Below, one piece after another: positions 4,459-57,614 of a stretch of 64,000 nt of DNA. Under the pieces are notes generated by a model. It made no database searches. It was not told where the DNA came from and saw only the letters and a program-made list of their open reading frames with translations. Origin of the DNA: Paludibacteraceae bacterium. Lineage in GTDB: Bacteria; Bacteroidota; Bacteroidia; Bacteroidales; Paludibacteraceae. Each line of letters opens with the position of its first letter. The first letter of the stretch is position 1. Location of the stretch: the NCBI GenBank assembly GCA_017559505.1, contig JAFYSF010000025.1:20637-84636 (forward strand). The letters are read 5' to 3'. The position numbers and the translations under genes are program-made.

Positions 4459-4870
4459 AAAGTGCATATGCCTTCATCTTTTCAACCATCGACACAAGTC
4501 CATTACTACGTGTTGGCGACAAATGTTCTTTCAAACCTATTTTATCGAGGAATCCAAAATTATATTTTACAACCTCTTCTGCCGTACAACCCGACATCAT
4601 ATTTATCAAGAGCGCAACAATACCCTTTACTATTATCGCATCACTTTCTCCTCTAAAATACAATCTACCATCTTGCTCATCACACACCAACCACACCTGA
4701 CTCTGACAGCCTTTTATCAGTGTATCATCATTCTTTTCTTCTGCCGACAAACCTTCTAATTCTCCTCCCAAATCCACAAGATATTGGTAACGATCCATCC
4801 AATCCTCATAAACCTCAAATTCCTCAAGTAATTCAATCTCTTTTTCTTCTAATGTTTTCATATATTTCAA
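4442..4870 (-). CDS. sufE: SufE-family cysteine desulfuration protein
   Basis: 142 aa with the KGCQSQVW active-Cys loop and the SPTRSNGL motif. Confidence 0.85.
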   Translation of the reverse strand: MKYMKTLEEKEIELLEEFEVYEDWMDRYQYLVDLGGELEGLSAEEKNDDTLIKGCQSQVWLVCDEQDGRLYFRGESDAIIVKGIVALLINMMSGCTAEEVVKYNFGFLDKIGLKEHLSPTRSNGLVSMVEKMKAYALLKLKV

Positions 4871-7482: not shown

Positions 7483-8331
7483 ATTATTATTTTCCGATTT
7501 CACGCTATTTTCACCATATTTTTGAGTGCAAATCATCAAAACCACACCTAAAAGAAACAATGGCACGCTCAACCACTGCCCCATATTCAACACCATATCA
7601 TGCTCAAAACCAACCTGAATCTCCTTCACAAACTCCACACAAAATCTAAACCCAGCTATCACCATCAATTGCAACGACAAATAAAATCCCGGCTTAACAC
7701 TCTCATATTTCAATCGCTTAAACAACCAAACTCCCACTCCAAACAGCATAAAAAAGAACAACGACTCATACAACTGAGCTGGATGACGAGGCAAATCATC
7801 TATTTCAGGGAAAACAAATGCCCACACCACATCCGTCGATGCACCAACAATCTCCGAATTCATCAAATTACCCAATCTTATAAAAGCCCCAGCCAATGCC
7901 GTCGCTATAGCCATCCAATCCATTATCGGCAATATCGCCAACTTCGACCTCCATCTAAACAACATCAATGCCAACATCAACCCCATCACAGCACCATGAC
8001 TTGCCAAACCATGGTATCCACTAAAGTAATAATTCCCCATTTCATCGACACCCACAGGCAAAAACATCTCTATCGGATGCGACAAAAAATAATCTGCTTC
8101 ATAGAATAAACAATGCCCCAATCTCGCACCCAAAAATATTCCAAAAAACGACCAAATTATCAAATTCTCAAACACCCCCTGCTCAATTCCAAACTCCTTA
8201 AATCTACCCCACACATACCATCCCGCCAATACCAAACCCAAAGCAAACAACACCCCGTACCACAACAAAGTGAAGCTCCCAACCGAAAAAATCACCGGAT
8301 TGGGCGACCATACAATCCAAAATAAATTCAT
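7480..8331 (-). CDS. lgt: prolipoprotein diacylglyceryl transferase
   Basis: 283 aa, polytopic, with GARLGHCLFYE and PRHPAQLYES motifs. Confidence 0.9.
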   Translation of the reverse strand: MNLFWIVWSPNPVIFSVGSFTLLWYGVLFALGLVLAGWYVWGRFKEFGIEQGVFENLIIWSFFGIFLGARLGHCLFYEADYFLSHPIEMFLPVGVDEMGNYYFSGYHGLASHGAVMGLMLALMLFRWRSKLAILPIMDWMAIATALAGAFIRLGNLMNSEIVGASTDVVWAFVFPEIDDLPRHPAQLYESLFFFMLFGVGVWLFKRLKYESVKPGFYLSLQLMVIAGFRFCVEFVKEIQVGFEHDMVLNMGQWLSVPLFLLGVVLMICTQKYGENSVKSENNN

Positions 8332-18197: not shown

Positions 18198-20738
18198 ATG
18201 AAAAAAAATCTATTCTCGCTAACAATGATATCGCTATTGCTCATTGTTAGCATCAATCTATCTGCTAAAGAAATAACAGAACAAGAAGCACAAACTGTCG
18301 CTTATCAGTTTCTAAGTAAACAAAAATATAAATCGCAAAAAAAACTTGCACCAAACAAATCATTAACACTGGAATACACTAAATTTCACTCTACAAACAA
18401 CACCCCTCTATACTACATTTTCAGTCAAGCTGAGGAAGGATTTGTTATTGTTGCAGGTAACGACCAAATAGAGCCAATCATAGGCTATTCAGACAATGGC
18501 AAATTCGATATAAATAATCTACCAGATAACTTCAAAGCATACCTCGAATGTTGCAATAAAAAAATAGAATTAGACATCAACAATAACAAAAAAATCGAAC
18601 AAGCAGAAGAAGATGAAAACGAAACAGAAAATACGTTTGCGCCTTATATCGCTCCATTGTTAGGGGATATATGTTTTACACAATCAAGCCCATACAACAA
18701 TCAATGTCCAGAACAAAACGGAGTAAACACCGTAGTTGGATGTGTTGCTATATCAATTGGTCAAATAATGACATACTACAAATACCCAACAGAAGGAACA
18801 GGTTATAATTCTTACACAACATCATCAAACAAAATAAAATTAAGTGTAAACTTCGCAGAAGCTACATATAATTGGGACAACATCCTACCAACCTATAGAA
18901 AAGGATCATACACAGAAGAACAAGCCAATGAAGTAGCAAAATTACTTTTCCATTGCGGAGTAGCAACTAACATGGATTATGGAGTAGGTTTTAGTGGTAG
19001 CAACAACACATACGCAATGATAGCTTTAACAAGCTACTTTGGCTATGACAAAGGGATAAGATTGGAAAATCGTATACTTTACACACAAACCGAATGGGAA
19101 AAACTAATTAAAAAAGAACTAAACGAAAATAGACCTATCGTATATAGCGGCATCAGTGCAACAACAGGAGGACATGCATTCAACTGCGATGGATACGATG
19201 AAAATAATATGTTCCACATAAATTGGGGTTGGGGTGGATATTGCAACGGATACTATAGCCTACGTCTATTGGATGCCGATATAACAAACCCTGAAAACTT
19301 ACATTCAGGCTATGCCCTACGCCAAAATATGATTATCGGTATTCAACCAGCAAAAGAAAACAGCCCAAAAGAACTTCAACATCAAATAGAACTAAAAGAT
19401 GGACTTTTCTATAATGAACAATTAGACGAAATAAGTTTCGAATGTTGTAATTATGGGCTAAAATCATTTAACGGAGAAATTGCATTAGGACTATATGACG
19501 AAAATAATAATTACATAGGTATTTGCGAAGAAACAAAAGAACAAGTAACATTAGGTATTTTACGAACTAAAATATATAAAACTAATGGTTCAAAAATAAT
19601 TTCACACCAAAAAGGCTATCGCATCATGCCAATGTACAAAGAAAACAATAAAGAAGAATGGCAACTTATACCCGGAGGACCAAACACACCAACATCTTTA
19701 ATTGTTGATTACGATGAAAATTCAAATGTAATCTTTAAAAACTTAGAGCAATTTGAAAAATCACAATTACAAGTAATATCATTGAAACCGATAGGTAATG
19801 TCTACCAACAACGCACTGCTCGTTTCACTGCAAAAGTGAAAAACATAAGCTCGTTAGAATATTATGGACCTATCGCAGTTTACATGGCTAATATCAACAA
19901 AGAAAATGAAAAAATCATATCAGAAGATTTTCCTGTAACACTAAAAAGTGGTGAAGAAGCAGAATATGAAATTCATATTGAAAATGTAAACGTATCATTA
20001 GGAGATTACTATTGCTATATCGTTTATGATGCATATGATGGACGTTGGACTACACTATATGGCGACTACTATAATAGTCCAGATATAAACTTCTCCGTCA
20101 TTGCTCCGCCAACAGAAGAGCCTCAATTAACTCTTGCAAAAGGGCTTTCATTCAAAAACACCACTACAAACATTTTTAATAATAAAGAGACTCCAATAAT
20201 AACAACAACTATATCAAATAAAGGAGGATATGCACAAATAAATGTAGCCGCGGTTATATTAGACAAAGACAAAAAACCTCTTTATTCTTTTGCTACAAAA
20301 AAAGTAATGTTAGATAAAGATGAAAGTACAGAACTTTCTTTTGTTTGTGATTTCCTAGAATTGAATAATGGTAAACATTATCTCAACCTACAATACTACG
20401 ACCCATTTGACGGAACTCAAAAATGGAAAATGCTAACGCCAACTACCAGAAATCTATTAGCATTCACAATTTCTGATGACGAACCAAATGCTATTGAAAA
20501 CACAAAAGAAACAGGAATAATCGCTTTCCCTTCACATGCAAAGGATTTTATCAATATAACAGCAGAAGATGAAATAAAAAATGTTACAATATATAGTGTA
20601 ACAGGCATGAAAATAGCATCAATCAAACCAAATTCAAACATAGCAACCATTGATGTTCAATATTTTGAAAATGGAGTCTATCTACTTGTAATAGAAACAA
20701 CAAAAAACAAGCAAACTATAAAAATAAACAAAATATAA
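18198..20738 (+). CDS. C10-family (streptopain/PrtT-like) cysteine peptidase with T9SS C-terminal sorting domain
   Basis: 846 aa with a signal peptide and an inhibitor-like propeptide (EITEQEAQTVAYQFL). Catalytic motifs are VGCVAISIGQIMTYY and GGHAFNCDGY..FHINWGWGG. The C-terminal ~80 aa are beta-rich and CTD-like (NVTIYSVTGMKI...GVYLLVIET). Confidence 0.8.
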   Translation: MKKNLFSLTMISLLLIVSINLSAKEITEQEAQTVAYQFLSKQKYKSQKKLAPNKSLTLEYTKFHSTNNTPLYYIFSQAEEGFVIVAGNDQIEPIIGYSDNGKFDINNLPDNFKAYLECCNKKIELDINNNKKIEQAEEDENETENTFAPYIAPLLGDICFTQSSPYNNQCPEQNGVNTVVGCVAISIGQIMTYYKYPTEGTGYNSYTTSSNKIKLSVNFAEATYNWDNILPTYRKGSYTEEQANEVAKLLFHCGVATNMDYGVGFSGSNNTYAMIALTSYFGYDKGIRLENRILYTQTEWEKLIKKELNENRPIVYSGISATTGGHAFNCDGYDENNMFHINWGWGGYCNGYYSLRLLDADITNPENLHSGYALRQNMIIGIQPAKENSPKELQHQIELKDGLFYNEQLDEISFECCNYGLKSFNGEIALGLYDENNNYIGICEETKEQVTLGILRTKIYKTNGSKIISHQKGYRIMPMYKENNKEEWQLIPGGPNTPTSLIVDYDENSNVIFKNLEQFEKSQLQVISLKPIGNVYQQRTARFTAKVKNISSLEYYGPIAVYMANINKENEKIISEDFPVTLKSGEEAEYEIHIENVNVSLGDYYCYIVYDAYDGRWTTLYGDYYNSPDINFSVIAPPTEEPQLTLAKGLSFKNTTTNIFNNKETPIITTTISNKGGYAQINVAAVILDKDKKPLYSFATKKVMLDKDESTELSFVCDFLELNNGKHYLNLQYYDPFDGTQKWKMLTPTTRNLLAFTISDDEPNAIENTKETGIIAFPSHAKDFINITAEDEIKNVTIYSVTGMKIASIKPNSNIATIDVQYFENGVYLLVIETTKNKQTIKINKI

Positions 20739-32276: not shown

Positions 32277-34097
32277 ATGGATTTTGGTTTAATTGATTTA
32301 TTGACCCTCATTGGTTCTATCGGACTTTTCTTGTACGGTATGAAGTTGATGAGTGAGGGTTTGCAGAAGGCTGCGGGTGACCGTTTGCGTAACATTTTGG
32401 CTTGGATGACAAACAATCGTTTGGTCGGAGCTTTGACCGGTATTCTTGTTACTGCGCTCATACAGAGTTCGTCGGCAACTACTGTGATGATTGTTAGTTT
32501 CGTTAATGCCGGATTGTTGTCTTTGGGACAATCTATGGCTGTGATTATGGGTGCTAACGTTGGTACTACTGCTACGGCATGGATTCTTTATTTAGGTGGT
32601 TTCAAAGTAAATCTTGCGGCAGCAGCTATTCCTATTGTTGCTTTCACGTTGCCTATGATGTTTTCGCAAAAGAATTCATGGAAAAGCTGGGGTGAAGTTT
32701 TATTGGGTTTTGCCTTCTTGTTTATGGGCTTGGACTTGTTGAACCACTCGGTGCCTGATTTGCGCTCGAATCCTGAACTTTTTGCTGCTATACAAAATTA
32801 TGCTGATATGGGGTGGATTTCTGTGGTGTTGTTTGCCTTTATCGGTATGATTATTACGATTGTGGTACAATCATCGAGCGTGACTTTTGCTATTACTCTT
32901 GTAATTTGTAGCAAGGGTTGGATTTCGTTTGAGATGGCAGCGGCATTGGTGCTTGGTAGCAATATTGGTACTTGTATTACGCCTATCATTGCATCGGCTT
33001 CGGGTAATATTTGGGCTAAGCGTTCGGCTATGGGACACTTGTTGTTCAATGTTTTAGGCTCTGTTTGGGTGTTGGCTCTATATTATCCGTTTATGAAATT
33101 GGTGATTTGGTTGTCGACTCTCGGTCAAGGCGATCCAACGGCGTTGCTCTCTTTTGTGAATAACACAGACCCTACTATTATCAATGCATTGAACGAAGGA
33201 ACGCTTGATTTGGCTGACCCAGTAAATCAACAACTTGCTACTACATTTACGGCTAATCAGGCATACGTGTCGTTTGGATTGTCGATATTCCATACGCTCT
33301 TTAATGCAATCAATATCTGCGTTATGATTTGGCTTACAGGCTTGTATGTGAAAATAGTAACGAAACTTATTCCAAGCAAACCTACTGAAGAAGAGGGTGA
33401 ATCGCACCTTAAATTTATCACAGCGGGTATGCTCTCTACATCGGAGCTTTCTATACTACAAGCGCGTAAAGAAATCCAACTCTATGGCGAACGTACACAA
33501 CGTATGTTTGGCCTTGTGCGTGATTTGTTCCACGAAACAGATGACAAGGAATTTACAAGCAAATACTCTCGTATTCAGAAGTATGAGAATATTTCTGACC
33601 GCATGGAGATGGAGATTGCTGAGTATTTGACAAAGGTTTCGGCAGGTCGTCTTTCGGATGAAAGTAAACACCAAGTGCAGATGAAGCTTCGTGTTATCTC
33701 TGAAATTGAGAGTGTTGCCGATTCATGTTACAATCTTGCTCGTACGTTGCAACGTCGTTTCCAACAACCTGAAAAATTCCCAGAAGATATTAATGGCAAT
33801 ATCGAATTGATGTTTAACCTCATCGAAAGCGGTTTGCAAAATATGTGTAATGTGCTCTGCGAGGAACATATAGATCAATCGTACGTAAATTCGGCGCAAA
33901 ATATTGAAAACGAAATCAATAACTATCGCAATCAACTTAAACTACAAAATGTTATTGCTGTGAATGAGGGCTATTATAATTACCCTGTGGCAACTACATA
34001 TATGGACACAATCGTTGAATGCGAGAAAATGGGCGATTATATCGTGAATGTGGTTGAGGCTGTAGCTGACTCAAAACTACATCCAACAGCTGAATGA
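32277..34097 (+). CDS. Na/Pi cotransporter family protein with PhoU-like C-terminal domain
   Basis: 606 aa with LFLYGMKLMSEGLQKAAG, QSSSATTVM and GANVGTT repeats. Confidence 0.85.
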   Translation: MDFGLIDLLTLIGSIGLFLYGMKLMSEGLQKAAGDRLRNILAWMTNNRLVGALTGILVTALIQSSSATTVMIVSFVNAGLLSLGQSMAVIMGANVGTTATAWILYLGGFKVNLAAAAIPIVAFTLPMMFSQKNSWKSWGEVLLGFAFLFMGLDLLNHSVPDLRSNPELFAAIQNYADMGWISVVLFAFIGMIITIVVQSSSVTFAITLVICSKGWISFEMAAALVLGSNIGTCITPIIASASGNIWAKRSAMGHLLFNVLGSVWVLALYYPFMKLVIWLSTLGQGDPTALLSFVNNTDPTIINALNEGTLDLADPVNQQLATTFTANQAYVSFGLSIFHTLFNAINICVMIWLTGLYVKIVTKLIPSKPTEEEGESHLKFITAGMLSTSELSILQARKEIQLYGERTQRMFGLVRDLFHETDDKEFTSKYSRIQKYENISDRMEMEIAEYLTKVSAGRLSDESKHQVQMKLRVISEIESVADSCYNLARTLQRRFQQPEKFPEDINGNIELMFNLIESGLQNMCNVLCEEHIDQSYVNSAQNIENEINNYRNQLKLQNVIAVNEGYYNYPVATTYMDTIVECEKMGDYIVNVVEAVADSKLHPTAE

Positions 34098-35904: not shown

Positions 35905-36654
35905 ATGAGAAAAAACATTGTAGCAGGCAACTGGAAAATGAATAAAAACCTGCAAGAAGGCGTAGCTTTGGCTGCTGAATTGAAAGAAAAAGTATCTAAT
36001 CCAAATTGTGATGTGATAATAGGCACTCCATTTATTCACCTTGCAACTGTGGCTGAATTGCTCAAAGATTCACCAATCGCTGTTGCTGCTGAAAACTGTG
36101 CCGACCACACATCTGGCGCATACACAGGCGAAGTTTCTGCCGAAATGGTAGCTTCGACAGGCGCAACTTACTGCATTATTGGTCACTCAGAACGTCGTAC
36201 ATACTATGGCGAAACATACGAAATCCTTCGCGAAAAAGTGCAATTGGCATTGGCTAACAACCTTCGCCCAATCTTCTGCATCGGCGAAGTGAAAGAAGAA
36301 CGTGAAGCAAACCGCCAAAACGAAGTTGTTAAAGCACAACTCGAAGGTTCGGTATTCAACCTTTCGGCTGAAGAATTTGGCAAACTCGTTATTGCTTACG
36401 AGCCAGTTTGGGCTATCGGCACAGGTCTTACTGCTACACCAGAACAAGCACAAGAAATCCACGCTTATATCCGTAGCCTTATCGCTGAAAAATATGGCAA
36501 CGAAGTGGCTGATAACACATCAATCCTCTATGGCGGTAGCTGCAATGCTAAAAATGCAGTAGGTCTATTCGCCAACCCAGATATTGATGGTGGTCTTATC
36601 GGTGGTGCATCACTCAAAGCTGACGATTTCTGCGCTATTATTAGTGCATTTTGA
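35905..36654 (+). CDS. tpiA: triosephosphate isomerase
   Basis: 249 aa with AGNWKMN, IGHSERR and [11 protein letters not shown]. Confidence 0.95.
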
Positions 36655-36671
36655 TTCGTAAATTTAATTAT

Positions 36672-36710
36672 AAACTCTCCATTAGGTATATGCCGAATGG
36701 AGAGTTTTTT
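36672..36710 (+). terminator. tpiA terminator; first copy of the CTCCATT...GAATGGAG hairpin
   Basis: 12-bp stem aaactctccatt/aatggagagttt with a 12-nt loop and a T-run. Confidence 0.75.
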
Positions 36711-36753
36711 GTTTTTTAACTTAATTTTATTTGCATAATTGGAATAAAAGCAT

Positions 36754-36761
36754 TATTTTTG
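36754..36761 (+). promoter_or_regulatory. candidate -7 box TATTTTTG
   Basis: 25 nt upstream of the ATG at 36786. Confidence 0.45.
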
Positions 36762-36785
36762 CAGTGCATATTAAAAATTAACAGT

Positions 36786-37016
36786 ATGACATCAAAAGAA
36801 AAAGAGTATCGGAAATTACATTTTGCTATTATGGTGATTGAAGCGAGCGCAAGAAAGCAAAATATTGAAAGCCGTGAGATGTATCGTCGTCTAAAACAAC
36901 AAGATTTAATACGTCTTCGTCTGTCTCGCCATTATGAAACATTACACACTCAAAGTCTTGATTGGGTGGTTGATGATACAATAGAAACTCTTCATAACTG
37001 GGAATCAGAAAATTAA
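36786..37016 (+). CDS. DUF3791 domain protein
   Basis: 76 aa from MTSKEKEYRKLHFAIMVIE. Small and helical, in the typical position upstream of DUF3990. Confidence 0.65.
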   Translation: MTSKEKEYRKLHFAIMVIEASARKQNIESREMYRRLKQQDLIRLRLSRHYETLHTQSLDWVVDDTIETLHNWESEN

Positions 37017-37023
37017 TAGTTAT

Positions 37024-37527
37024 ATGATTACACTCTATCATGGTTCAAATATTGAAGTTGTTGCTCCTTTTGCAAGGGTAGGACGTAAGAATTTAGATTT
37101 TGGTCAAGGTTTTTACTTGACTAAAATAAAACGTCAAGCAGAGGATTGGGCGACAGTTATCGCTAGTCGCAAAGGTCGTAATAGTGTCGGTGTTATCTCA
37201 GAGTTTAGTTTTGAAAAAGAGCAAGCGGTTAAAGATGGATTTCGGTTTAAAATATTTAATGTGTATGATATCGAGTGGTTAGATTTTGTTGTTAATTGTC
37301 GAAAAGGAAAAGATTTTGCATCAAAGTATGATGTTATTGAAGGAGGTGTTGCAAATGACAATGTTATTGATACTGTTGAAGATTATGAAAAAGGGATTAT
37401 TACAGCAGAGCAAGCATTAGGTCAATTGCAATATAAGAAGGTGAACCATCAAATTTGTATTCTTAATCAGAAAGTTATAGATGCATATTTGACTTTTGTT
37501 AAATCATATATTGTGGAGGAGAAGTGA
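37024..37527 (+). CDS. DUF3990 domain protein
   Basis: 167 aa with LYHGS...DFGQGFYLT...DVIEGGVANDNV, the characteristic DUF3990 motif pattern. Confidence 0.75.
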   Translation: MITLYHGSNIEVVAPFARVGRKNLDFGQGFYLTKIKRQAEDWATVIASRKGRNSVGVISEFSFEKEQAVKDGFRFKIFNVYDIEWLDFVVNCRKGKDFASKYDVIEGGVANDNVIDTVEDYEKGIITAEQALGQLQYKKVNHQICILNQKVIDAYLTFVKSYIVEEK

Positions 37528-37528
37528 T

Positions 37529-37729
37529 ATGCGTGATTCTGTATTATGGCGCAAACAAAGTTTTATTGTTATTTTGCTCGCAAAAAGGCTTAGTATAGAC
37601 GTTGATAGAGCTTTGGATTTGTATTATTCAACAGAAACAGCTCGTCAATTATCCGATGCAAAAACAAAGTTATATTTAATGAGTGACCAATATATAGTAG
37701 ATAATATTATTTCTGAACTAAATAAATAA
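37529..37729 (+). CDS. DUF3791 domain protein (second copy)
   Basis: ATG 37529, 1 nt after the DUF3990 stop. 66 aa, MRDSVLWRKQSFIVILLAKRL. Confidence 0.6.
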   Translation: MRDSVLWRKQSFIVILLAKRLSIDVDRALDLYYSTETARQLSDAKTKLYLMSDQYIVDNIISELNK

Positions 37730-37740
37730 GAATAATTAAA

Positions 37741-37780
37741 AAAATCTTCATTCGCATTATTGGTGAATGGAGATTTTTTT
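37741..37780 (+). terminator. terminator hairpin, cassette copy 2
   Basis: Stem atcttcattc/gaatggagat (one U-G pair) followed by TTTTTTT. About 90% identical to 39218-39263. Confidence 0.7.
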
Positions 37781-37781
37781 A

Positions 37782-37789
37782 TATCTTTG
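37782..37789 (+). promoter_or_regulatory. candidate -7 box TATCTTTG, fused to the preceding terminator
   Basis: Exact motif, 84 nt upstream of the ATG at 37873. Confidence 0.5.
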
Positions 37790-37790
37790 C

Positions 37791-37873
37791 ATCGAAAATG
37801 TGATTTTTTACACATAAAAACATCTAAAAATGTGATTTTTTCAAACAAAAGACAACTAAAAATGTGATTTTTA
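37791..37873 (+). repeat. 2.6 tandem copies of a 32-bp unit, each containing AAAATGTGATTTTT
   Basis: ATGTGA occurs at 37798, 37830 and 37862 (32-nt spacing). The third unit runs into the CDS start. Confidence 0.85.
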
Positions 37874-39210
37874 TGCTTAAACGTAAGATTGACAACTTTT
37901 TGGCAGAATGGAAGCAAAAAAAGGATAAAAAACCTCTTATAGTAAAAGGAGCTCGTCAAATAGGCAAAACTGCGTCTATTGAACATTTTGCTAAAAATAA
38001 TTATGTCCATATTGTAGAAATAAACTTTGCATTACAACCAAAGTTCAAGCGTATTTTTGATGATGGTTTTGAAGTTGATATAATACTTAAGAATATTTCG
38101 AGAATAGATCCATCTTTAGTTTTTTCTCCCGGCGAAACATTATTATTTTTTGATGAGTTACAAGATTGTCCAAATTGCGCTACAAGTTTGAAGTCGTTTA
38201 AATTGGATGGTCGTTATGATGTCATATGTTCTGGCTCGTTGATGGGACTTTATTATCAACAAATAGAATCTAATAGTGTAGGTTATAAAGAAGATTATGA
38301 AATGTATTCTCTTGATTTCGAGGAATTTTTGTGGGCTAGTGGTTATGGAGATGATTTTATTGATGAACTATATGATAGTATGATTAATCTACAACCTCTA
38401 TCATCAATTACATTTGATGTTTTGAGTTCGATTTTTCGTGATTATATGATTATTGGAGGTATGCCTGAGGTGGTTAATCGTTATGCTGAAACTAAACAAT
38501 TTTCAGGAACACTTCAATTACAGCAACAACTTTTACGAGATTATGAAGAGGATATAACAAAGTATGCATCTGGATTTGATAAAGCAAAAGTATTAGCAGT
38601 TTATCGTCATATATCTACATTTCTTGCACAAGAGAATAAAAAATTTCAGGTAACCAAGATTGCACGTGGAGCTCGTAATCGCGAATATATGGGAGCGGTA
38701 GAGTGGTTGTCTAATGCAGGGATTGTAAATGTTTGCTATTGCATAGCTACATTAGAATTACCTCTGAAAGGTAATTACGACCCAAAACAATATAAACTTT
38801 ATTATGGTGATACTGGATTGTTGATTGCTTCGCTTGACGATGAAGCACAAGATGATTTACGTTCGAATAATAACTTTGGAACATATAAGGGCGCAATTTA
38901 TGAAAATATAGTCGCTGATATGTTGGTCAAGCAGGGTTATGATTTGTATTATTATAACAACAATTCTCCAAGTTTAGAAATGGATTTTTTTGTGAGAGAT
39001 ACTAATTCGCTTATACCTATTGAAGTTAAAGCAAATAATAATGCAACAGTTTCACTTAATCGCTTAATTGATAGTGATGCAAATAAATATTCTGACATTC
39101 GCTATGGCATAAAACTTTGTAATAACAATATAGGTTTTAATGGTAAATTTTATACTTTTCCTTACTCTTTGACCTTTTTGCTTAAGCGTTTTCTTAAAAA
39201 CAAAAAATAA
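37873..39210 (+). CDS. AAA_14 ATPase with C-terminal DUF4143 (PD-(D/E)xK-like) domain
   Basis: 445 aa from MLKRKIDNF. Walker A is GARQIGKT and Walker B is LLFFDELQ. The C-terminal EMDFFV...IPIEVKA is a nuclease-like D..E.K motif. Confidence 0.8.
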   Translation: MLKRKIDNFLAEWKQKKDKKPLIVKGARQIGKTASIEHFAKNNYVHIVEINFALQPKFKRIFDDGFEVDIILKNISRIDPSLVFSPGETLLFFDELQDCPNCATSLKSFKLDGRYDVICSGSLMGLYYQQIESNSVGYKEDYEMYSLDFEEFLWASGYGDDFIDELYDSMINLQPLSSITFDVLSSIFRDYMIIGGMPEVVNRYAETKQFSGTLQLQQQLLRDYEEDITKYASGFDKAKVLAVYRHISTFLAQENKKFQVTKIARGARNREYMGAVEWLSNAGIVNVCYCIATLELPLKGNYDPKQYKLYYGDTGLLIASLDDEAQDDLRSNNNFGTYKGAIYENIVADMLVKQGYDLYYYNNNSPSLEMDFFVRDTNSLIPIEVKANNNATVSLNRLIDSDANKYSDIRYGIKLCNNNIGFNGKFYTFPYSLTFLLKRFLKNKK

Positions 39211-39217
39211 ATAATTC

Positions 39218-39263
39218 AAAAAAATCTCCATTCGCATTATTATTGCCGAATGGAGATTTTTTT
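39218..39263 (+). terminator. terminator hairpin, cassette copy 3
   Basis: Perfect 14-bp stem aaaatctccattcg/cgaatggagatttt with a 12-nt loop. Confidence 0.75.
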
Positions 39264-39264
39264 A

Positions 39265-39272
39265 TACCTTTG
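39265..39272 (+). promoter_or_regulatory. candidate -7 box TACCTTTG, fused to the preceding terminator
   Basis: 37 nt upstream of the ATG at 39309. Confidence 0.5.
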
Positions 39273-39308
39273 CGTTCAGAAATACTAATTTTTAAATCTA
39301 ATTTAGTT

Positions 39309-40382
39309 ATGAAAATCATTAATGTTGATGCACCTAAGCATCTTTTAAAAAAAATTGAACACAACAGAATTTATGATTTTATTCTTGATGTAGTTCGACC
39401 ATTAGAGTGTTGTTATTACGAACATTTTTCTCGTCATAGCTACCCATTATCTCATTATCATCACTATCACTCATGTCATTTTAATGCTTATGAAAGCATA
39501 GCAATTCTGTTACATACAATGCCGATTTTTCTTCGTGATTCAGCATCTCGAAGCCGTGATGATAATGCTATTATTGACCCATTGGGTGCATATTTTTCTA
39601 ACCGAAAAAGTGATAGTGCGTACATTGAGTTGTATTTGTCTAACATTGATGATGAGGCTAAAAATGATGAACATTTTAAATGGTTATTCACAAAAGTTTT
39701 AATACACGAGTTGGCTCATGCTACTATGGATGTTTGGGATGAAAAAGTGTCTTATCATACTGAATTTGGTAGATGGCGTGAAGAATCAATGGCAAATGCT
39801 ATAGCCCTTAGAATAATAAAAGAATATGCTGACCAAGATTTCTATGATTATGCTAAAATATTTATGCAATCACAACCTGCAGAATATGCACTCGGTGTAT
39901 TGATGGTAGATTTAGAATATTGGGATTTTAGTGATGTTGTACGTTCTAAATATCATGGGGTTAATCTTGATTTACAAAAAGAATGGCTTAATTATGTAAA
40001 AGGATCTCCAAATTTGGATGGATTAAAAACATGGAATGATTTATTATCTAGAGCTGATGTATATTATTTCCAATGTAAATATTATACTTCAGAAGAAGAT
40101 CTTGTATATGATATTGTAAACGAGGTTCTTTCTGATTATGAAGCTAACAATGGAGAAAATATGGATTATGCGAAATTTAGTTCTTTATTCCCTTGTATCG
40201 AAATGAGTGAAGACGAAATGTCGTATGAACCAGCTAACAAAGTAGAAGGTAATGATAGTTATGAAACCAAAATAGAACTAAAAGACGGTGATTATTATTT
40301 ATATGACTGTTGGACTAACAAAGAACTTCATGAGTTTATAAAAAATGTAAAAGTAGATTTAAAAGAGTTTACTAATTGGTAG
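39309..40382 (+). CDS. hypothetical protein with HExxH zinc-metallopeptidase motif
   Basis: 357 aa from MKIINVDAPK (the ORF-track start lies inside the terminator). VLIHELAHATMD is followed by EESMANA ~24 aa downstream (gluzincin-like spacing). The N-terminus has a Cys/His-rich patch CCYYEHFSRHSYPLSHYHHYHSCH. Confidence 0.5.
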   Translation: MKIINVDAPKHLLKKIEHNRIYDFILDVVRPLECCYYEHFSRHSYPLSHYHHYHSCHFNAYESIAILLHTMPIFLRDSASRSRDDNAIIDPLGAYFSNRKSDSAYIELYLSNIDDEAKNDEHFKWLFTKVLIHELAHATMDVWDEKVSYHTEFGRWREESMANAIALRIIKEYADQDFYDYAKIFMQSQPAEYALGVLMVDLEYWDFSDVVRSKYHGVNLDLQKEWLNYVKGSPNLDGLKTWNDLLSRADVYYFQCKYYTSEEDLVYDIVNEVLSDYEANNGENMDYAKFSSLFPCIEMSEDEMSYEPANKVEGNDSYETKIELKDGDYYLYDCWTNKELHEFIKNVKVDLKEFTNW

Positions 40383-40459
40383 TTTCTGCTCAATGTGGAT
40401 AATAAAACATACAAAGTTGCAATGTAATTTTAACCCTATATAAATACCATCGTTGCTAT

Positions 40460-40558
40460 GTGTCAGTCTTCTTCGATGAAGGTTGCTTGAAGGTTGCTTA
40501 CAGATAAGGAAAGGTTTTATCTTATCCATCAGCAAAGTACAAGCAACCTTTAAGCAAG
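40460..40558 (+). repeat. copy 3 of the GTGTCAGTCTTC... element core, extended into a long hairpin
   Basis: The core is followed by a 15-bp stem (40485-40499 with 40541-55, one G-U pair) that encloses an inner gataag/cttatc hairpin. Confidence 0.8.
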
Positions 40559-40917
40559 AAAACAGCCATCTTTACACCCTACATTTACAAAGTCTGCAAA
40601 ACAAATAAAATCCACTTGACCAAGTTTATTTTCCTAAAAAATAGACAATTTTTCTACTTTTTTCCTAAATAAATAGACGAACTTTGCAATTGCAAAGTTG
40701 CAAAGTTAATCTAAAGTTCTGATTATTAAAGCTAAAGCCTCTTTGCATTGTAATCAATCCTAATAAATATTTAGCATGTAACTCAAAGAATACCACCGTG
40801 TTGTCTTAATTTTATAAACTTTGTAAACTTTGCAACTCCTTATAAGCAAAAAATCTTATGTTAATATCTTGTTAATATTTTTAATAAAAAACAGCGTGGA
40901 ACATTCGAAAAAAAATG

Positions 40918-40925
40918 CTACTTTT
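40918..40925 (+). promoter_or_regulatory. candidate -7 box TACTTTTG
   Basis: 47 nt upstream of the ATG at 40972. Confidence 0.45.
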
Positions 40926-40971
40926 GTATTTTATTTGCATGGGGTTCTATGTAAATACTAAATGAGTAATT

Positions 40972-54753: not shown

Positions 54754-55743
54754 CTATTCGTTACAATTTCTACATATATCAAATGATTTACGATTACTTA
54801 AAAGAGTATTACGAAAATCATATGCTTTTTCACTTTTCCATATTTTTTCAATTTTATTTTCTTTTATGTTTCCATAAATATATTTTTCTTGTTTATCAAA
54901 ACAACAAGGTAAAATATTTCCGTCAGCTGAAACTACTATTCCATACCAGGCACGAAAACATGCTTTTGAAAAATCTTTTTTAATTTTCCATTCATTATTT
55001 ATTTTATGATATCTACTATATTTATTTATGGTAGGTATAATTTCTGAATTTTTATTTGGAGAATGAATTTGTGCTGATTTAATCGAAATTTTATCAGCAC
55101 CCCATATTGGTGCTAATTGTTTAAATTCATCTATTTGATGTTCGTTAAATTTAAAAACTATAAATTGAGCTTCTATGCAAGGTGTTTTACTATTAAGTTC
55201 TGTTTTTGCTTCTTTCAAAAATTTTATAGTTTCAATAGCTTTTGATAATAATCCACCTTTACGATATTTTTCATATATTTCTTGAGTAGTTCCATCTATT
55301 GATATAATTATTCTATCAAGACCTGATTTTACAATTTCAATGGCAATATTTTTATTTATAATTTGGGCATTTGTAGATGTAATTGTATAAATATTATATT
55401 GTTTAGCATAAAATATGTAATTTGTAAAATTTTTATTTAAAAAAGGTTCACCTTGAAAATAAAATATTGCATCAAGCATTGTAGTACCTATTTCATTTAT
55501 AATTTTACAATATTCATCATAGTTAAGAAAATTATTTTTACGATTAGTTAAATTATTACCGACGTCACATTGTGGACAATTAAGATTACAGCGTGAAGAT
55601 AATTCAAAAGAAGCAAAAGATGGTTTACCATATACATATACTTTTTTAGTTATACGCGATAATAAGAATGCTATTATGTTATTAAAAAAGTTATAAAATT
55701 TATAAATGTTAATTTTACAAAAATATTTCATAAAAAAACACAT
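54754..55743 (-). CDS. radical SAM protein with SPASM-like C-terminal Cys cluster
   Basis: 329 aa with the CNLNCPQC (CxxxCxxC) motif. The C-terminus has CFRAW...PCCFD...CRNC. The N-terminus is hydrophobic. The gene is very AT-rich. Confidence 0.8.
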   Translation of the reverse strand: MCFFMKYFCKINIYKFYNFFNNIIAFLLSRITKKVYVYGKPSFASFELSSRCNLNCPQCDVGNNLTNRKNNFLNYDEYCKIINEIGTTMLDAIFYFQGEPFLNKNFTNYIFYAKQYNIYTITSTNAQIINKNIAIEIVKSGLDRIIISIDGTTQEIYEKYRKGGLLSKAIETIKFLKEAKTELNSKTPCIEAQFIVFKFNEHQIDEFKQLAPIWGADKISIKSAQIHSPNKNSEIIPTINKYSRYHKINNEWKIKKDFSKACFRAWYGIVVSADGNILPCCFDKQEKYIYGNIKENKIEKIWKSEKAYDFRNTLLSNRKSFDICRNCNE

Positions 55744-55815
55744 TAAAAATATTATGTTAAATATTTAAATATCAATAGTTTAATAAAAAATAAAGATATT
55801 ATATAATTTTTGTTG

Positions 55816-55823
55816 CAAATTTA
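55816..55823 (-). promoter_or_regulatory. candidate -7 box (TAAATTTG on minus strand) for the radical SAM gene
   Basis: Plus-strand CAAATTTA, 73 nt upstream of the start at 55743. Confidence 0.4.
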
Positions 55824-55848
55824 GTAATAATATTTTAATTTTTATTTG

Positions 55849-55856
55849 TATATTTG
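55849..55856 (+). promoter_or_regulatory. candidate -7 box TATATTTG
   Basis: 82 nt upstream of the ATG at 55938. Confidence 0.45.
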
Positions 55857-55937
55857 CAAGGAATTATAAGTTTGGATATCTATGTACTTAAATATCTTAA
55901 AATCAGATAATAATCAATTATTTAATATTATTTAATT

Positions 55938-57614
55938 ATGAAAAAGCAATCATTAATTTTGACTTTAGCACTCGTTGTGCTTACTTTCTTTGGTTGTAAA
56001 CCTCCAAAAGAATTTATTGACAGTATTAAAGCTACTCCAAATCCAGCGGAGTATAAAGGTGGTAAAATTGAAGTAGTATTTGAAGGTAATTTTCCTAATA
56101 AATACTTTGGTAAAAAAATGACAATGCAAGTTGTTCCTGTATTAACAACTGCTGATGGTAAAGTTTATAAAGCTGAACCTGCAAATTATCAAGGTGAAAA
56201 AATTAAAGACAATAACGATGTAATTAAATACAAAGTTGGTGGTAAATATACACAAACTGCTGTATGGGATTATGTAGAAGGTATGGAAACAGGTGTTATC
56301 ACTCTTGAAGCTTCAGGTAAATATGGTAAAAAAGAGTATACACTTGATCCAATTAAAGTTATTGAAGGTGTTAATATTACACCTCTTTTGGTAACTGTAA
56401 AAGCTGGTACTGAGGATTTGAAACCTGCAATTGCAGCTGATAAATTCCAACGTATTATCGAAGAAACTACAGATGCTCAAATTAAATTCTTGGTTAACCA
56501 ATCAAATATTCGTGGTTCTGAAAAGAAAACAGAAGCTATTGTTAATTTGACAAAAGCTATTAAAGAAGCTAAAAAAGCTGAAAATAAAGAATTAAAATCA
56601 ATTGAAATTAGTTCATATGCTTCTCCAGAAGGTGAACTTGATTGGAATGAGAAACTTTCTAACCGTCGTGGTGAAGCTTCTTCAAAATATATCAACCGTG
56701 AGTTGAAAAAATTGAAAGCTTCTGTAAATATTGATTCTAAATTTACAGCTGAAGACTGGGATGGTTTCCAAAAATTAGTTGAAGCTTCTTCTATTGAAGA
56801 TAAAGCAGTTATTCTTCGTGTTCTTTCTATGTACACTGATCCACAACAACGTGAACAAGAAATTAAAAATATTGCTGTAGCTTATAAAGCAATTTCTGAA
56901 GAAATTCTTCCAGAACTTCGTCGTTCAAAAATGACTTTGACAGTTAATGTAATTGGTAAATCAGATGAAGAAATCAGTGCTCTTGTAAAAGAAAATCCAG
57001 CACAACTTAATGTAGAAGAACTTCTTTATGCTGCTACATTGGTAGCTGATAATGCAGCTAAAGCTGAAATTTATACTAAAGCAACTGAAATTTATGCTAA
57101 TGATTATCGTTCATTCAATAACCTTGGTATGGTTCTTTATGCACAAGGTAAATCTGAAGAAGCAGCTCGTTGCTTTGCTAAAGCATTAGAAATGGCTCCT
57201 AACTGTCCTAGCGTAAACTATAATAATGGTCTTATAGCTCTTTCTAAAAATGATGTAGCTAAAGCTGAAGAATTCTTCGGTAAAGCAGGTGGTGTAGGTA
57301 AAGATCTTGATTATGCAAATGGTGCAATTGCTATTTTGAAAGGTAACTATAAAAAAGCTGCTGAATTGTTTGGTGCTGCTGCAACTAACAATGCTGCTCT
57401 TGCAAATATCCTTAACAAAAATAATGGTGCTGCTCGTAAAGCATTGGAAAATGTTGCTACTCCAAATGCTATTACTGCTTATTTGAAAGCTATTGTTGCT
57501 GCTCGTACTAACAATGCAGCTGAATATGAAGCAAATATTGCTGAAGCTTCTAAATGTGCAAAACTTGCTGAACGTGCTAAAACAGATGTTGAATTTGTAA
57601 ATGTACGTAAATAA
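55938..57614 (+). CDS. lipoprotein with OmpA-like segment and C-terminal TPR repeats
   Basis: 558 aa with lipobox LTFFGC. SYASPEGELDWNEKLSNRRG is OmpA-like, followed by TPR-like repeats (NNLGMVLYAQGKSEEAARCFAKALEMAPN). Confidence 0.5.
   Translation: MKKQSLILTLALVVLTFFGCKPPKEFIDSIKATPNPAEYKGGKIEVVFEGNFPNKYFGKKMTMQVVPVLTTADGKVYKAEPANYQGEKIKDNNDVIKYKVGGKYTQTAVWDYVEGMETGVITLEASGKYGKKEYTLDPIKVIEGVNITPLLVTVKAGTEDLKPAIAADKFQRIIEETTDAQIKFLVNQSNIRGSEKKTEAIVNLTKAIKEAKKAENKELKSIEISSYASPEGELDWNEKLSNRRGEASSKYINRELKKLKASVNIDSKFTAEDWDGFQKLVEASSIEDKAVILRVLSMYTDPQQREQEIKNIAVAYKAISEEILPELRRSKMTLTVNVIGKSDEEISALVKENPAQLNVEELLYAATLVADNAAKAEIYTKATEIYANDYRSFNNLGMVLYAQGKSEEAARCFAKALEMAPNCPSVNYNNGLIALSKNDVAKAEEFFGKAGGVGKDLDYANGAIAILKGNYKKAAELFGAAATNNAALANILNKNNGAARKALENVATPNAITAYLKAIVAARTNNAAEYEANIAEASKCAKLAERAKTDVEFVNVRK

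What the first reader, a model, noticed from the sequence alone, without database searches (positions are those of the whole stretch)
36672..40382. AT-rich three-module island after tpiA, with modules separated by near-identical terminator+promoter cassettes
Three units follow tpiA: DUF3791-DUF3990-DUF3791, the AAA_14/DUF4143 ATPase, and the HExxH protein.

- Each unit is preceded by the same ~55-bp cassette. It consists of a hairpin CTCCATTCG-loop-CGAATGGAG, then T7, then a TAnnTTTG box.
- The copies at 37735-37793 and 39217-39277 are ~90% identical, including the loop. The copy at 36672-36710 is more diverged.
- Independent terminators do not normally share loop sequence, so this suggests cassette-wise acquisition or duplication.
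- One hand-counted 60-nt line (38401-38460) has 28% GC, against ~45% for a backbone line (33001-33060).
- The gene content (a predicted ART-like protein with small partners, an ATPase-nuclease, and a metallopeptidase-like protein) resembles a defence or conflict island. No known defence system was recognised.
Basis: partly seen in the sequence, partly recalled or inferred. Interest (0 to 1): 0.65.

Follow-up and report, generated by a model that had tools for sequence, protein, structure and literature searches.

The report
Modular gene hotspot, shared terminator junctions
Just after the housekeeping gene tpiA, an uncultured gut Bacteroidales bacterium has a slot whose content differs between related lineages; here it holds three separately transcribed accessory modules (two are catalogued but untested phage-defence candidates), and every module boundary is a copy of one terminator-plus-promoter hairpin, which is where relatives gain or lose modules.

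Summary
Three related hairpins lie at 36671-36710, 37738-37780 and 39218-39263. Island GC is 31% against about 40% in the flanks.

The hairpins are RNA-level intrinsic terminators on the gene strand. In 14 variants the plus strand always folds better, with 16 G.U pairs against 1, and the stem covaries. In copies B and C the T-tract runs straight into a Bacteroides TAnnTTTG -7 box, and the loop carries ATTG where a -33 box is expected.

Genes 1-3 match PADLOC candidate PDC-M13, whose core is an ART-fold protein closest to the ParT toxin. The ATPase matches PDC-S01. Both are untested candidates. The HExxH protein belongs to an unnamed zincin-like family.

In five related lineages the tpiA-GT9 interval holds different module sets, and most junctions between shared and unshared DNA fall in a hairpin cassette. 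Island DNA is more conserved than the backbone (91-97% against 78-87%), and module and backbone similarities disagree, so modules have been exchanged. The PDC-M13 module is bracketed by direct terminator repeats at three loci.

Best reading: a lineage-variable accessory hotspot whose shared terminator/promoter junctions act as portable homology for module gain and loss. An integron-like site-specific mechanism is not excluded, but it is unlikely.

The parts
36671..36710 (+). Hairpin A: intrinsic terminator of tpiA (T1 subtype, loop GGTATATGC), followed by T6-G-T6.
   Evidence: RNA fold of -19.7 kcal/mol, z = -5.9. Covariance-model hit of 58 bits. The same subtype follows tpiA in L145, L149 and L158.
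36754..36761 (+). TATTTTTG, the Bacteroides-type -7 promoter box for module 1, lying 25 nt upstream of the ATG.
   Evidence: Motif scan. The same TATTTTTGCAG lies upstream of the M13 module at another locus, L170.
36786..37016 (+). Module 1, gene 1: 76-aa DUF3791 protein (PADLOC PDC-M13A).
   Evidence: Pfam DUF3791 at E = 1.2e-13. PDLC04434 at E = 4.2e-14.
37024..37527 (+). Module 1, gene 2: 167-aa DUF3990 protein with an ADP-ribosyltransferase fold, the predicted toxin or effector (PDC-M13B).
   Evidence: Pfam DUF3990 at E = 3e-46. PDLC04438 at E = 5.6e-51. AF2 model with pLDDT 88.5; the best PDB match is the ParT ADP-ribosylating toxin 6D0I (prob 0.99, TM 0.53-0.55), followed by Arr and cholera toxin A. 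Y5, H6, G7, G29 and Y31 are invariant; S8 and F30 are conserved in at least 90%.
37529..37729 (+). Module 1, gene 3: 66-aa protein (PDC-M13C). Its start lies 1 nt after the stop of gene 2.
   Evidence: PDLC04442 at E = 4.7e-9. No Pfam hit. The three-gene order is conserved at four different loci.
37738..37789 (+). Cassette B: the terminator hairpin of module 1 (T2 subtype, two G.U pairs) plus T7, running into the -7 box TATCTTTG (37782-37789). The loop ATTG lies 19 nt upstream of the box.
   Evidence: RNA fold of -21.2 kcal/mol on the + strand against -13.1 on the - strand. Terminator scan hit. Motif scan.
37795..37872 (+). 5' leader of the ATPase gene, with three copies of AAAATGTGATTTTT spaced 32 nt apart. 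The third copy abuts the ATG.
   Evidence: Exact 14-mers at 37795, 37827 and 37859 (family D6). The pattern is conserved in L144 and L149, and in a 78%-identical homologue at an unrelated locus, L154.
37873..39210 (+). Module 2: 445-aa AAA_14/DUF4143 ATPase with a C-terminal YraN/UPF0102-like nuclease-type motif (PADLOC PDC-S01).
   Evidence: Pfam AAA_14 at E = 7e-24, DUF4143 at E = 7e-32 and UPF0102 at E = 2.9e-4. PDLC04786 at E = 4.1e-152 over the full length. YraN at E = 5e-4. A 78% homologue is embedded in a type I RM/AbiJ/RT/AbiEii island.
39218..39272 (+). Cassette C: the terminator hairpin of module 2 (T2 subtype, perfect 17-nt arms including the A/T runs) plus T7, running into the -7 box TACCTTTG (39265-39272).
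   Evidence: Inverted repeat I12 at 100% complementarity. RNA fold of -22.8 kcal/mol, z = -7.8. Motif scan.
39309..40382 (+). Module 3: 357-aa HExxH (zincin-like) protein from an unnamed family.
   Evidence: HELAH at 133-137, with H133, E134, H137 and E158/E159 invariant in 40 homologues. Weak Zincin_1 hit at E = 0.006. AF2 model with pLDDT 88.6; the only fold match is the minimal zincin 3E11 (prob 0.80). The start at 39309 agrees with the homologue consensus MKI.N.DAP.
40389..40427 (+). Relic of the 3' end of an LRR_5/Flg_new_2 surface-protein gene with a T9SS-type tail. It marks the right edge of the variable segment.
   Evidence: 97% identical to the last 39 nt of the 1086-aa gene of L149/L152. 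L145 keeps a longer relic.
40428..40971 (.). Non-coding spacer before GT9. About 410 nt of it (40435-40847) is absent from L145 and present in L143, L144 and L149.
   Evidence: blastn segments. No Rfam match. The inverted repeat at 40461-40568 folds in the window but not in L149.

Best explanation
The region is an accessory-gene hotspot, variable between related lineages, lying between tpiA and the GT9-parAB genes of an uncultured gut Bacteroidales (Paludibacteraceae-like) lineage. It holds three independently transcribed modules.

**The modules.**
1. A three-gene ART-toxin-like module, PADLOC candidate PDC-M13.
2. An AAA_14/DUF4143 ATPase with a nuclease-type C-terminus, PADLOC candidate PDC-S01. 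Its leader carries three evenly spaced repeats.
3. An orphan zincin-like protein.

**The junctions.** Each of tpiA, module 1 and module 2 ends in a member of one family of Rho-independent terminator hairpins. In copies B and C the terminator is fused to the next module's promoter:
- the loop supplies an ATTG where a -33 box is expected;
- the 3' arm and T-tract form the spacer;
- a TAnnTTTG -7 box follows directly.

Each junction therefore both insulates a module and drives the next one.

**How the hotspot changes.** The junctions resemble each other. They share 18-20 nt of near-identical 3' arm plus T-run, and up to about 55 nt between B and C. They therefore act as portable homology. Modules are inserted, deleted or swapped by recombination within the junctions, and whole islands move between related lineages by recombination in the flanks.

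**Shown.** The homology of the hairpins, their RNA-level structure, the positions of the promoter motifs, the variable occupancy, the breakpoints, and the discordant similarity of modules and backbone.

**Inferred.** That termination and promoter activity really occur, that the recombination is homology-driven, and that PDC-M13 and PDC-S01 act in defence.
For: **Repeat specificity.** The 17-mer occurs only at these three sites: 5 arm hits against 0.54 expected.

**RNA-level terminator.**
- Folds of -19.7, -21.2 and -22.8 kcal/mol, z = -6 to -9.
- In all 14 distinct family members the gene strand folds better than the opposite strand, with 16 G.U pairs against 1.
- 95% of cells are paired and 5 pairs change on both sides; 0 of 500 shuffles reach the observed score; slid controls give 42-63% paired.

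**Promoter.**
- TAnnTTTG lies at 37782, 39265 and 36754.
- The same T-run+TAYCTTTGCA string occurs before unrelated genes in other Bacteroidales.

**Hotspot.** The same flanks carry different content.
- L145: HExxH only.
- L149/L150: ATPase, a 204-aa gene and an LRR protein.
- L158-161: M13, then an Lcl_C gene.
- L143: ATPase, a non-coding unit and HExxH.
- L144: the same as the window.

**Breakpoints.**
- Homology to L145 ends at 36712 and resumes at 39246.
- Homology to L149 ends at 36712, resumes at 37731 and ends at 39273.

**Exchange.**
- The island is 91-97% identical to L143/L144, while adjacent backbone is 78-87%.
- L145 has the closest backbone (GT9 90% aa) but the most divergent HExxH (76%).

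**Hairpins and modules.**
- T2-type hairpins accompany the M13 module at two other loci, L164 and L170.
- Direct repeats bracket M13 in the window (37 of 48), in L170 (60 of 65) and in L180 (125 of 153).

**Module identities.**
Against: - No experiment or transcript data support termination or promoter activity.
- The whole genome is not available, so a genome-wide census of the hairpin is missing.
- The shared homology is short. It is 18-55 nt at about 77-92% identity, which is marginal for RecA-type recombination.
- The first insertion at each locus is not explained by homology.
- At a fourth locus (L178-187) M13 is bracketed by direct repeats of an unrelated terminator family. This looks like duplication of the target and fits simple homology less well.
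- Within each lineage the arrangement appears fixed. All 5 contigs carrying the identical TpiA have the same neighbours. Turnover is therefore rare, and the junction repeats could be passive scars.
- The -33 assignment rests on ATTG rather than the consensus TTTG.
Confidence: 0.6

Rival explanations
1. The modules are trans-mobilised gene cassettes. The hairpin is an attachment site for a recombinase encoded elsewhere. This would resemble integron attC sites, Xer-dependent pdif modules or cis-mobilisable elements. Arrays such as A-M13-B-ATPase-C arise when cassettes integrate one after another into the same site.
For: - Each module is bounded by same-orientation copies that share a near-identical core, CCGAATGGAGA(T/G)TTTTTT.
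- An unoccupied-looking site with a single hairpin exists in L145.
- M13 is bracketed by direct repeats at three loci, including a 43-nt identical pair in L170.
- A 1124-bp circular unitig consists of exactly M13 plus one hairpin.
- T2 hairpins accompany M13 to other loci.
Against: - The structure is maintained through G.U pairs on the sense strand only. That points to selection on RNA rather than on a DNA site.
- Loop length varies from 5 to 11 nt.
- No attC R'/R'' consensus is present (by inspection).
- No recombinase was seen in the parts of the window that were annotated.
- The circular unitig is what a k = 31 graph yields from a single integrated copy flanked by 43-nt identical repeats, so it is uninformative.
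- At the fourth locus the repeats are about 120-150 nt, 73-82% identical and of an unrelated sequence. That is unlike a conserved att core.
- The 78% ATPase homologue at another locus lacks the hairpin.
- The arrangement is fixed within each lineage.
Confidence: 0.12
2. The repeats are passive. Related terminators were inherited with each module, or copied by local duplication or gene conversion. They play no part in module turnover, which happens by ordinary illegitimate recombination or by exchange through the conserved flanking genes.
For: - Module boundaries necessarily lie at terminators and promoters, so breakpoints there are partly expected.
- One indel, the roughly 315-nt non-coding unit present in L143 and absent from the window, is bounded only by T-run+TAT(A/G)CCT microhomology and not by the hairpin.
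- The right edge of the variable region (40383-40389) has no hairpin.
- Whole-island similarity exceeds backbone similarity, which fits exchange through the flanks.
Against: - Three independent left or internal junctions fall within the same 40-55 nt element.
- The hairpin stem is shared by tpiA, M13 and the ATPase. These three units have separate histories: M13 occurs alone, the ATPase occurs alone, and tpiA occurs with neither.
- Direct repeats bracketing M13 recur at three loci.
Confidence: 0.2
3. The hairpin is a dispersed repeat of this genome (REP/BIME-like or MITE-like), or simply its generic terminator. Its presence three times here is then incidental.
For: - The architecture of A-run, stem, loop, stem and T-run is the common terminator design of this genome. 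Other examples lie at 844, 30172 and 57638.
- Hairpin A terminates a housekeeping gene.
Against: - The other terminators have unrelated stems.
- There is no further copy in the 64-kb window.
- No member was found in about 1.5 Mb from 80 other Bacteroidales species and other loci of relatives.
- An exact-stem scan of JGI metagenomes gave only unrelated sequences, none with flanking A/T runs and many high-GC.
- Viral contigs gave none.
Confidence: 0.05

Closest known systems
Minimal mobile elements of Neisseria (alternative gene cassettes between conserved flanking genes, exchanged by homologous recombination; PMC1797815, PMC3787668).
   Same: The flanks are conserved (tpiA on the left, GT9-parAB on the right) and related lineages hold alternative contents. 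There is no integrase or transposase in the element. Module and backbone similarities are discordant, which indicates exchange.
   Different: Here the slot holds several modules in series. They are separated by a repeated internal terminator/promoter junction that itself coincides with the breakpoints. Natural transformation is not known for this organism.
Integron gene cassettes with attC sites, and Xer-dependent pdif modules of Acinetobacter plasmids (own knowledge).
   Same: Short imperfect palindromes in one orientation separate unrelated gene units. A single-copy site exists where no module is inserted.
   Different: There is no IntI nearby and no attC R'/R'' motifs. Each module has its own promoter. 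Loop length varies. The structure is conserved through G.U pairs on the transcribed strand, as expected for an RNA terminator.
PADLOC phage-defence candidates PDC-M13 and PDC-S01 (Payne et al., bioRxiv 10.1101/2024.01.29.577857).
   Same: All three M13 genes hit the A/B/C models in order. The ATPase hits PDC-S01 over its full length. A 78% homologue of the ATPase is embedded in a type I RM system, which is the context used to define these candidates.
   Different: Here neither module is embedded in a known defence system. Both sit after a housekeeping gene. The candidates themselves have not been tested.
ParST and RES-Xre ADP-ribosyltransferase toxin-antitoxin modules (PDB 6D0I/6D0H).
   Same: The DUF3990 model has an ART fold closest to ParT (prob 0.99, TM about 0.54). 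It is encoded with small, tightly coupled partner genes. Pfam places DUF3990 in the ART clan (PMC7955679).
   Different: Sequence identity is only 8%. There are two small partners rather than one. The partners are DUF3791-type proteins, not ParS/Xre. No target or toxicity is known.
Bacteroides sigma-AB promoters (-33 TTTG / -7 TAnnTTTG; Bayley et al. 2000, own knowledge) and bidirectional intrinsic terminators.
   Same: A -7 box of canonical sequence precedes each module. The hairpins are stable and carry flanking A and T runs.
   Different: In cassettes B and C the terminator and promoter overlap physically. The loop and 3' arm lie inside the promoter spacer, and the same composite is repeated.

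Membership tests
PADLOC PDC-M13 (three-gene candidate system) | Hits to the A, B and C protein models in adjacent genes on the same strand. | tested here: met
   Gene 1 hits PDLC04434 at E = 4e-14, gene 2 hits PDLC04438 at E = 6e-51 and gene 3 hits PDLC04442 at E = 5e-9. The genes are contiguous and co-oriented.
PADLOC PDC-M13 (three-gene candidate system) | Protection against phage. | not testable with these tools
   The candidates are listed as untested.
PADLOC PDC-S01 (single-gene candidate) | Full-length hit to a PDC-S01 model, with AAA_14 + DUF4143 architecture. | tested here: met
   PDLC04786 at E = 4.1e-152, residues 1-440 of 445. Pfam AAA_14 + DUF4143.
PADLOC PDC-S01 (single-gene candidate) | Embedding in, or association with, known defence systems. 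| tested here: inconclusive
   Not embedded in the window. A 78% homologue lies between AbiEii and HsdR in a type I RM/AbiJ/RT island.
Rho-independent (intrinsic) terminator | A stable stem-loop immediately followed by a U-tract on the transcribed strand. | tested here: met
   Folds of -19.7 to -22.8 kcal/mol with T6-T7 tails. Strand asymmetry and covariation.
Rho-independent (intrinsic) terminator | Transcripts end at the U-tract. | not testable with these tools
   No transcript data are available.
Bacteroides sigma-AB promoter | A -7 TAnnTTTG box a short distance upstream of the gene. | tested here: met
   Boxes at 36754 (25 nt before the ATG), 37782 (84 nt before) and 39265 (37 nt before).
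Bacteroides sigma-AB promoter | A -33 TTTG box 19-21 nt upstream of the -7 box. | tested here: inconclusive
   Only ATTG is present in the loops of B and C, 19 nt upstream. T1-type hairpins have no clear match.
Integron cassette array | attC sites with R''/R' core motifs (RYYYAAC ... GTTRRRY). | tested here: not met
   Inspection of the aligned hairpins shows neither motif.
Integron cassette array | An adjacent intI integrase and attI, with promoterless cassettes. | tested here: not met
   No integrase appears among the genes annotated around the island or among the other window ORFs scanned. Every module has its own -7 box.
Dispersed extragenic repeat (REP/BIME, MITE) | Many copies scattered through the genome at unrelated sites. 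| tested here: inconclusive
   Within 64 kb the only copies are in the island. None was found in 1.5 Mb of relatives' loci. The rest of this genome is not available.
Minimal mobile element / recombination hotspot | The same conserved flanking genes with alternative inserts in related genomes. | tested here: met
   Five occupancy states lie between tpiA and GT9-parAB.
IS200/IS605-type hairpin-ended transposon | A Y1 HUH transposase (TnpA) inside the unit. | tested here: not met
   No transposase domain in any of the five proteins. No His-hydrophobic-His motif is visible in the 167-aa protein (by inspection).
ART-fold toxin-antitoxin (ParST/RES-Xre/DarTG-like) | The toxin has an ADP-ribosyltransferase fold with conserved NAD-site residues. 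| tested here: met
   Foldseek match to ParT at prob 0.99 and TM 0.53-0.55, followed by Arr and cholera toxin A. Y5, H6, G7, G29 and Y31 are invariant; S8 and F30 are conserved in at least 90%.
ART-fold toxin-antitoxin (ParST/RES-Xre/DarTG-like) | Toxicity that is neutralised by the neighbouring small protein. | not testable with these tools
   Requires expression experiments.

The most novel reading that the evidence does not exclude
Small defence-candidate modules of gut Bacteroidales (PDC-M13, and here also PDC-S01) would be recombinase-less mobile cassettes. They would integrate at intrinsic-terminator hairpins, duplicating the terminator, and build serial arrays by accretion. They would be mobilised in trans, as a Bacteroidales counterpart of integron cassettes or pdif modules. 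Recurrent bracketing of M13 by direct terminator repeats at three loci, with two unrelated repeat families, is the observation that keeps this reading open.
Probability: 0.12. Interest if true: 0.8.

Novelty: new variant of a known kind. Interest (0 to 1): 0.42.

Why it matters
- **A natural insulating junction.** If the junctions do work as described, they are a compact part that both terminates one unit and starts the next. Such a part would let unrelated accessory genes be stacked after a housekeeping gene without transcriptional interference. It would also supply the homology that makes the stack easy to rearrange.
- **Two untested candidates in a simple setting.** PDC-M13 and PDC-S01 appear here with clean boundaries and natural presence/absence comparisons. 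That makes it straightforward to clone and test them.
- **A mechanistic lead for PDC-M13.** Its core protein has an ART fold close to the ParT toxin.
- **Limits.** The gene content is not new, and hotspots of this general kind are well known.

Tried and rejected
- **Exact-stem scan of JGI metagenomes.** It gave 61 hits, none related. None has the flanking A/T runs, and many come from high-GC contigs.
- **Viral contigs.** No match to the cassette.
- **Plasmid and phage collections.** No meaningful match to the island DNA.
- **Rfam.** No family matched the island, its spacers or the relatives' junctions.
- **PHROGs and NCBIfam.** Nothing useful beyond weak YraN-like hits for the ATPase C-terminus.
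- **HExxH protein.**
  - The PDB sequence search gave nothing.
  - Fold searches against PDB and BFVD gave only a weak minimal-zincin match.
  - Distant family members have no Pfam domains.
- **The 1124-bp circular contig L174.** I considered it as evidence for an excised M13 circle. I rejected it because a k = 31 assembly graph gives the same cycle from one integrated copy flanked by 43-nt identical repeats.
- **Inverted repeat at 40461-40568.** I considered it as a structured RNA, but the fold is not kept in L149, where z = 0.0.
- **Relatives' genomes in GTDB.** They were too distant to help (best TpiA 86%). They lack both the hairpin and the downstream synteny. The informative relatives came from metagenome contigs found through the island proteins.
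- **Gene 3 as a DUF3791 paralogue of gene 1.** No detectable similarity.

Full report
**1. What is in the sequence**

tpiA ends at 36654. GT9 starts at 40972. Five co-oriented genes lie between them.

| Coordinates | Product | Evidence |
|---|---|---|
| 36786-37016 | DUF3791 protein | Pfam E = 1e-13 |
| 37024-37527 | DUF3990 protein | Pfam E = 3e-46 |
| 37529-37729 | 66-aa protein | no Pfam hit |
| 37873-39210 | AAA_14 + DUF4143 ATPase | |
| 39309-40382 | HExxH protein | weak Zincin_1 hit only |

Three related hairpins close tpiA, the first operon and the ATPase gene. They lie at 36671-36710, 37738-37780 and 39218-39263.
- The arm motif CGAATGGAGATTTTTTT, with up to 3 mismatches, occurs nowhere else in the 64 kb. 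There are 5 arm hits against 0.54 expected.
- B and C share 68 of 83 aligned positions, including the loop. A is more distant.
- The island has 30.9% GC and a GC3 of about 20-23%. The flanks have about 40% GC and a GC3 of 30-40%.

**2. What the cassette is**

Each hairpin folds stably as RNA on the gene strand, at -19.7, -21.2 and -22.8 kcal/mol with z = -6 to -9.

I collected 14 distinct members of the family from the window and from relatives.
- In every one the gene strand folds better than the opposite strand.
- Base changes are absorbed as G.U pairs on the gene strand only, 16 against 1.
- On the alignment 95% of cells pair and five pairs change on both sides.
- No shuffle reaches the observed score, and sliding the partners drops pairing to 42-63%.

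This is the signature of selection on an RNA hairpin. With the T6-T7 tail, it indicates an intrinsic terminator.

The other half of the cassette, T-run + TAYCTTTGCA, is the ordinary promoter of this clade. The same string precedes unrelated genes in other Bacteroidales.
- TAnnTTTG boxes lie at 37782 and 39265, directly after the T-tracts. Another lies at 36754 for the first module.
- The loop of B and C carries ATTG 19 nt upstream of the box. That is the position expected for a -33 element (established Bacteroides promoter consensus, own knowledge).

Other terminators in the window have the same A-run/stem/T-run design but unrelated stems.

**3. The organism and the usable relatives**

The window matches an ENA gut-metagenome contig exactly. 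The best GTDB representatives are uncultured Bacteroidales/Paludibacteraceae MAGs with only 86% TpiA identity. They share the upstream synteny DUF1599-MauE-TpiA, but not the downstream region or the hairpin.

Closer relatives were reached through the island proteins and their contigs.

**4. The interval is a hotspot, and the junctions are the breakpoints**

Between the same flanks I found the following states.

| Locus | Content between tpiA and GT9 |
|---|---|
| L145/L146 | one hairpin, HExxH |
| L149/L150 | hairpin, ATPase (92%), hairpin, 204-aa gene, 1086-aa LRR_5/Flg_new_2 protein |
| L158-161 | hairpin, M13 (89%), hairpin, non-coding unit, Lcl_C gene |
| L143 | ATPase (97%), hairpin, non-coding unit, HExxH (86%) |
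| L144 | as the window |

A distant relative, L029, has tpiA next to GT9-parA with nothing between them.

The blastn segments place the junctions as follows.
- Homology to L145 stops at 36712 and resumes at 39246.
- Homology to L149 stops at 36712, resumes at 37731 and stops again at 39273.
- All of these positions lie inside a cassette.
- The right edge of the variable region is at 40383-40389. There the window keeps the last 39 nt of the LRR/T9SS-type gene of L149 at 97% identity. The HExxH gene has therefore itself replaced a surface-protein gene.

Similarities between modules and backbone are discordant.
- The island is 91-97% identical to L143/L144, while adjacent backbone is 78-87%.
- L145 has the closest backbone (GT9 90%) but the most divergent HExxH (76%).

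Modules or whole islands have therefore been exchanged between lineages. Within a lineage the arrangement looks fixed: all five contigs with the identical TpiA have the same neighbours.

**5. The hairpin family beyond this locus**

A covariance model of the hairpin found no further member. The search covered about 1.5 Mb: the window, 80 species' tpiA loci and the other loci of relatives.

Two subtypes exist.
- T1 (loop GGTRTATGC) always follows tpiA.
- T2 (loop CATTATTG / GCGATTG) follows M13 or the ATPase at this locus.
- T2 also accompanies the M13 module at two other chromosomal sites. In L164 it lies directly upstream. In L170 it lies on both sides, with 43 nt identical.

The 78% ATPase homologue in a type I RM/AbiJ/RT/AbiEii island has no such hairpin.

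At a fourth M13 locus (L178-187) the module is again bracketed by direct repeats, 88 of 121 and 125 of 153 nt. These repeats belong to an unrelated terminator family. Bracketing of M13 by repeats that contain a terminator is thus recurrent and not fully explained.

**6. The modules**

*M13.*
- Genes 1-3 hit PADLOC PDC-M13 A/B/C.
- The DUF3990 model (pLDDT 88.5) matches the ParT ADP-ribosylating toxin best (prob 0.99, TM about 0.54). The next matches are Arr and cholera toxin A.
- Pfam places DUF3990 in the ART clan.
- The tight gene coupling suggests a toxin with small neutralising partners. This is an inference.

*ATPase.*
- It hits PDC-S01 at E = 4e-152.
- It has a Walker A motif and a C-terminal YraN/UPF0102-like motif.
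- Its leader carries three AAAATGTGATTTTT repeats 32 nt apart. They are conserved even in the 78% homologue at another locus. I take them to be an operator, which is also an inference.

*Status of the candidates.* PDC systems are untested candidates defined by being embedded in RM/BREX/DISARM systems.

*HExxH protein.*
- HELAH and E158/E159 are invariant.
- The model is confident (pLDDT 88.6) but matches only a minimal zincin weakly.
- The family is small, with 391 representatives at E <= 1e-3, and has no Pfam model.

**7. Explanation and rivals**

- **Best reading (0.6).** This is a lineage-variable hotspot whose modules are insulated and driven by homologous terminator/promoter junctions. 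Those junctions serve as portable homology for gain, loss and swapping of modules.
- **Passive scars (0.2).** The junction repeats play no part in turnover.
- **Trans-mobilised cassettes with the hairpin as an att-like site (0.12).** Direct repeats around M13 favour this. The RNA-strand asymmetry, the variable loops, the absence of a recombinase and the fixed arrangements within lineages count against it.
- **Generic dispersed repeat (0.05).**

The circular contig L174 does not discriminate between these readings.

**8. Novelty**

The gene content is catalogued, though untested. Hotspots and minimal mobile elements are known (PMC1797815, PMC3787668). What is unusual is the repeated, fused terminator/promoter junction that coincides with the breakpoints, together with the recurrent repeat-bracketing of M13. 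I rate this a new variant of a known kind, of moderate interest.

Noticed in passing
window 37795-37872: Three exact copies of AAAATGTGATTTTT lie 32 nt apart in the ATPase leader, and the third abuts the ATG. The same three-fold pattern precedes a 78%-identical ATPase at an unrelated locus (L154), although the spacers differ. It is likely an operator or another regulatory element specific to this ATPase family.
   Followed up: partly
L143:1258-1575, L149:7892-8205, L159:1498-1812, L160:1501-1815 (not in the window): A roughly 315-nt non-coding unit occupies the same hotspot in relatives. It starts at the T2 cassette promoter and ends in its own terminator. RNAalifold predicts a long-range helix with four fully compensatory pair swaps between two sequence groups. 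It has no Rfam match. It is a candidate new structured RNA.
   Followed up: partly
L178-L187 (about 3570-3720 and 4714-4860): At a fourth locus the M13 module is bracketed by direct repeats of 120-150 nt. They comprise an unrelated terminator hairpin (GGGCTTCCTC..GAGGGAGCCC) plus downstream intergenic DNA as far as TTTGCACAT. The gene upstream is a highly variable Flg_new_2 surface protein.
   Followed up: partly
window 40389-40427; L145:1776-1823; L176 about 6850-7000 and 8135-8330: The HExxH gene is followed by a relic of an LRR_5 surface-protein gene with a T9SS-type tail. A 54% homologue in another lineage, L176, is flanked on both sides by LRR_5 repeat-coding fragments. The gene may habitually insert into, or replace, BspA-like genes.
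   Followed up: partly
L174 (Logan SRR34078320, 1154 bp): This contig is circular, with a 30-nt end overlap. It consists of M13 plus one hairpin and the leader. It could be an excised circle or a tandem copy, but it is equally what a k = 31 graph produces from 43-nt flanking repeats.
   Followed up: yes
L154-L157: The 78% ATPase homologue lies between AbiEii and HsdR in an island of HsdM, AbiJ_NTD4, HsdS, a reverse transcriptase, AbiEii, the ATPase and HsdR (the last with a Peptidase_S24 C-terminus).
   Followed up: no
window 40435-40847: About 410 nt of non-coding DNA before GT9 is absent from L145 and present in L143, L144 and L149. It contains several AACTTTGCAA-like repeats and a 48-nt imperfect inverted repeat at 40461-40568. 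The repeat folds in the window (z = -3 to -5.5), but the fold is not kept in L149.
   Followed up: partly
window 54754-57614: A radical SAM/SPASM gene (- strand) and a TPR protein (+ strand) lie in the most AT-rich part of the window, at 21-26% GC between 54 and 56 kb. This may be a peptide-maturation locus.
   Followed up: no
window 18198-20738: A Peptidase_C10 (streptopain-like) protein with an Inhibitor_I69 prodomain and a T9SS sorting tail lies in a second low-GC stretch, 17-21 kb at about 31-33% GC. A similar C10 protease lies near the HExxH homologue in L176.
   Followed up: no
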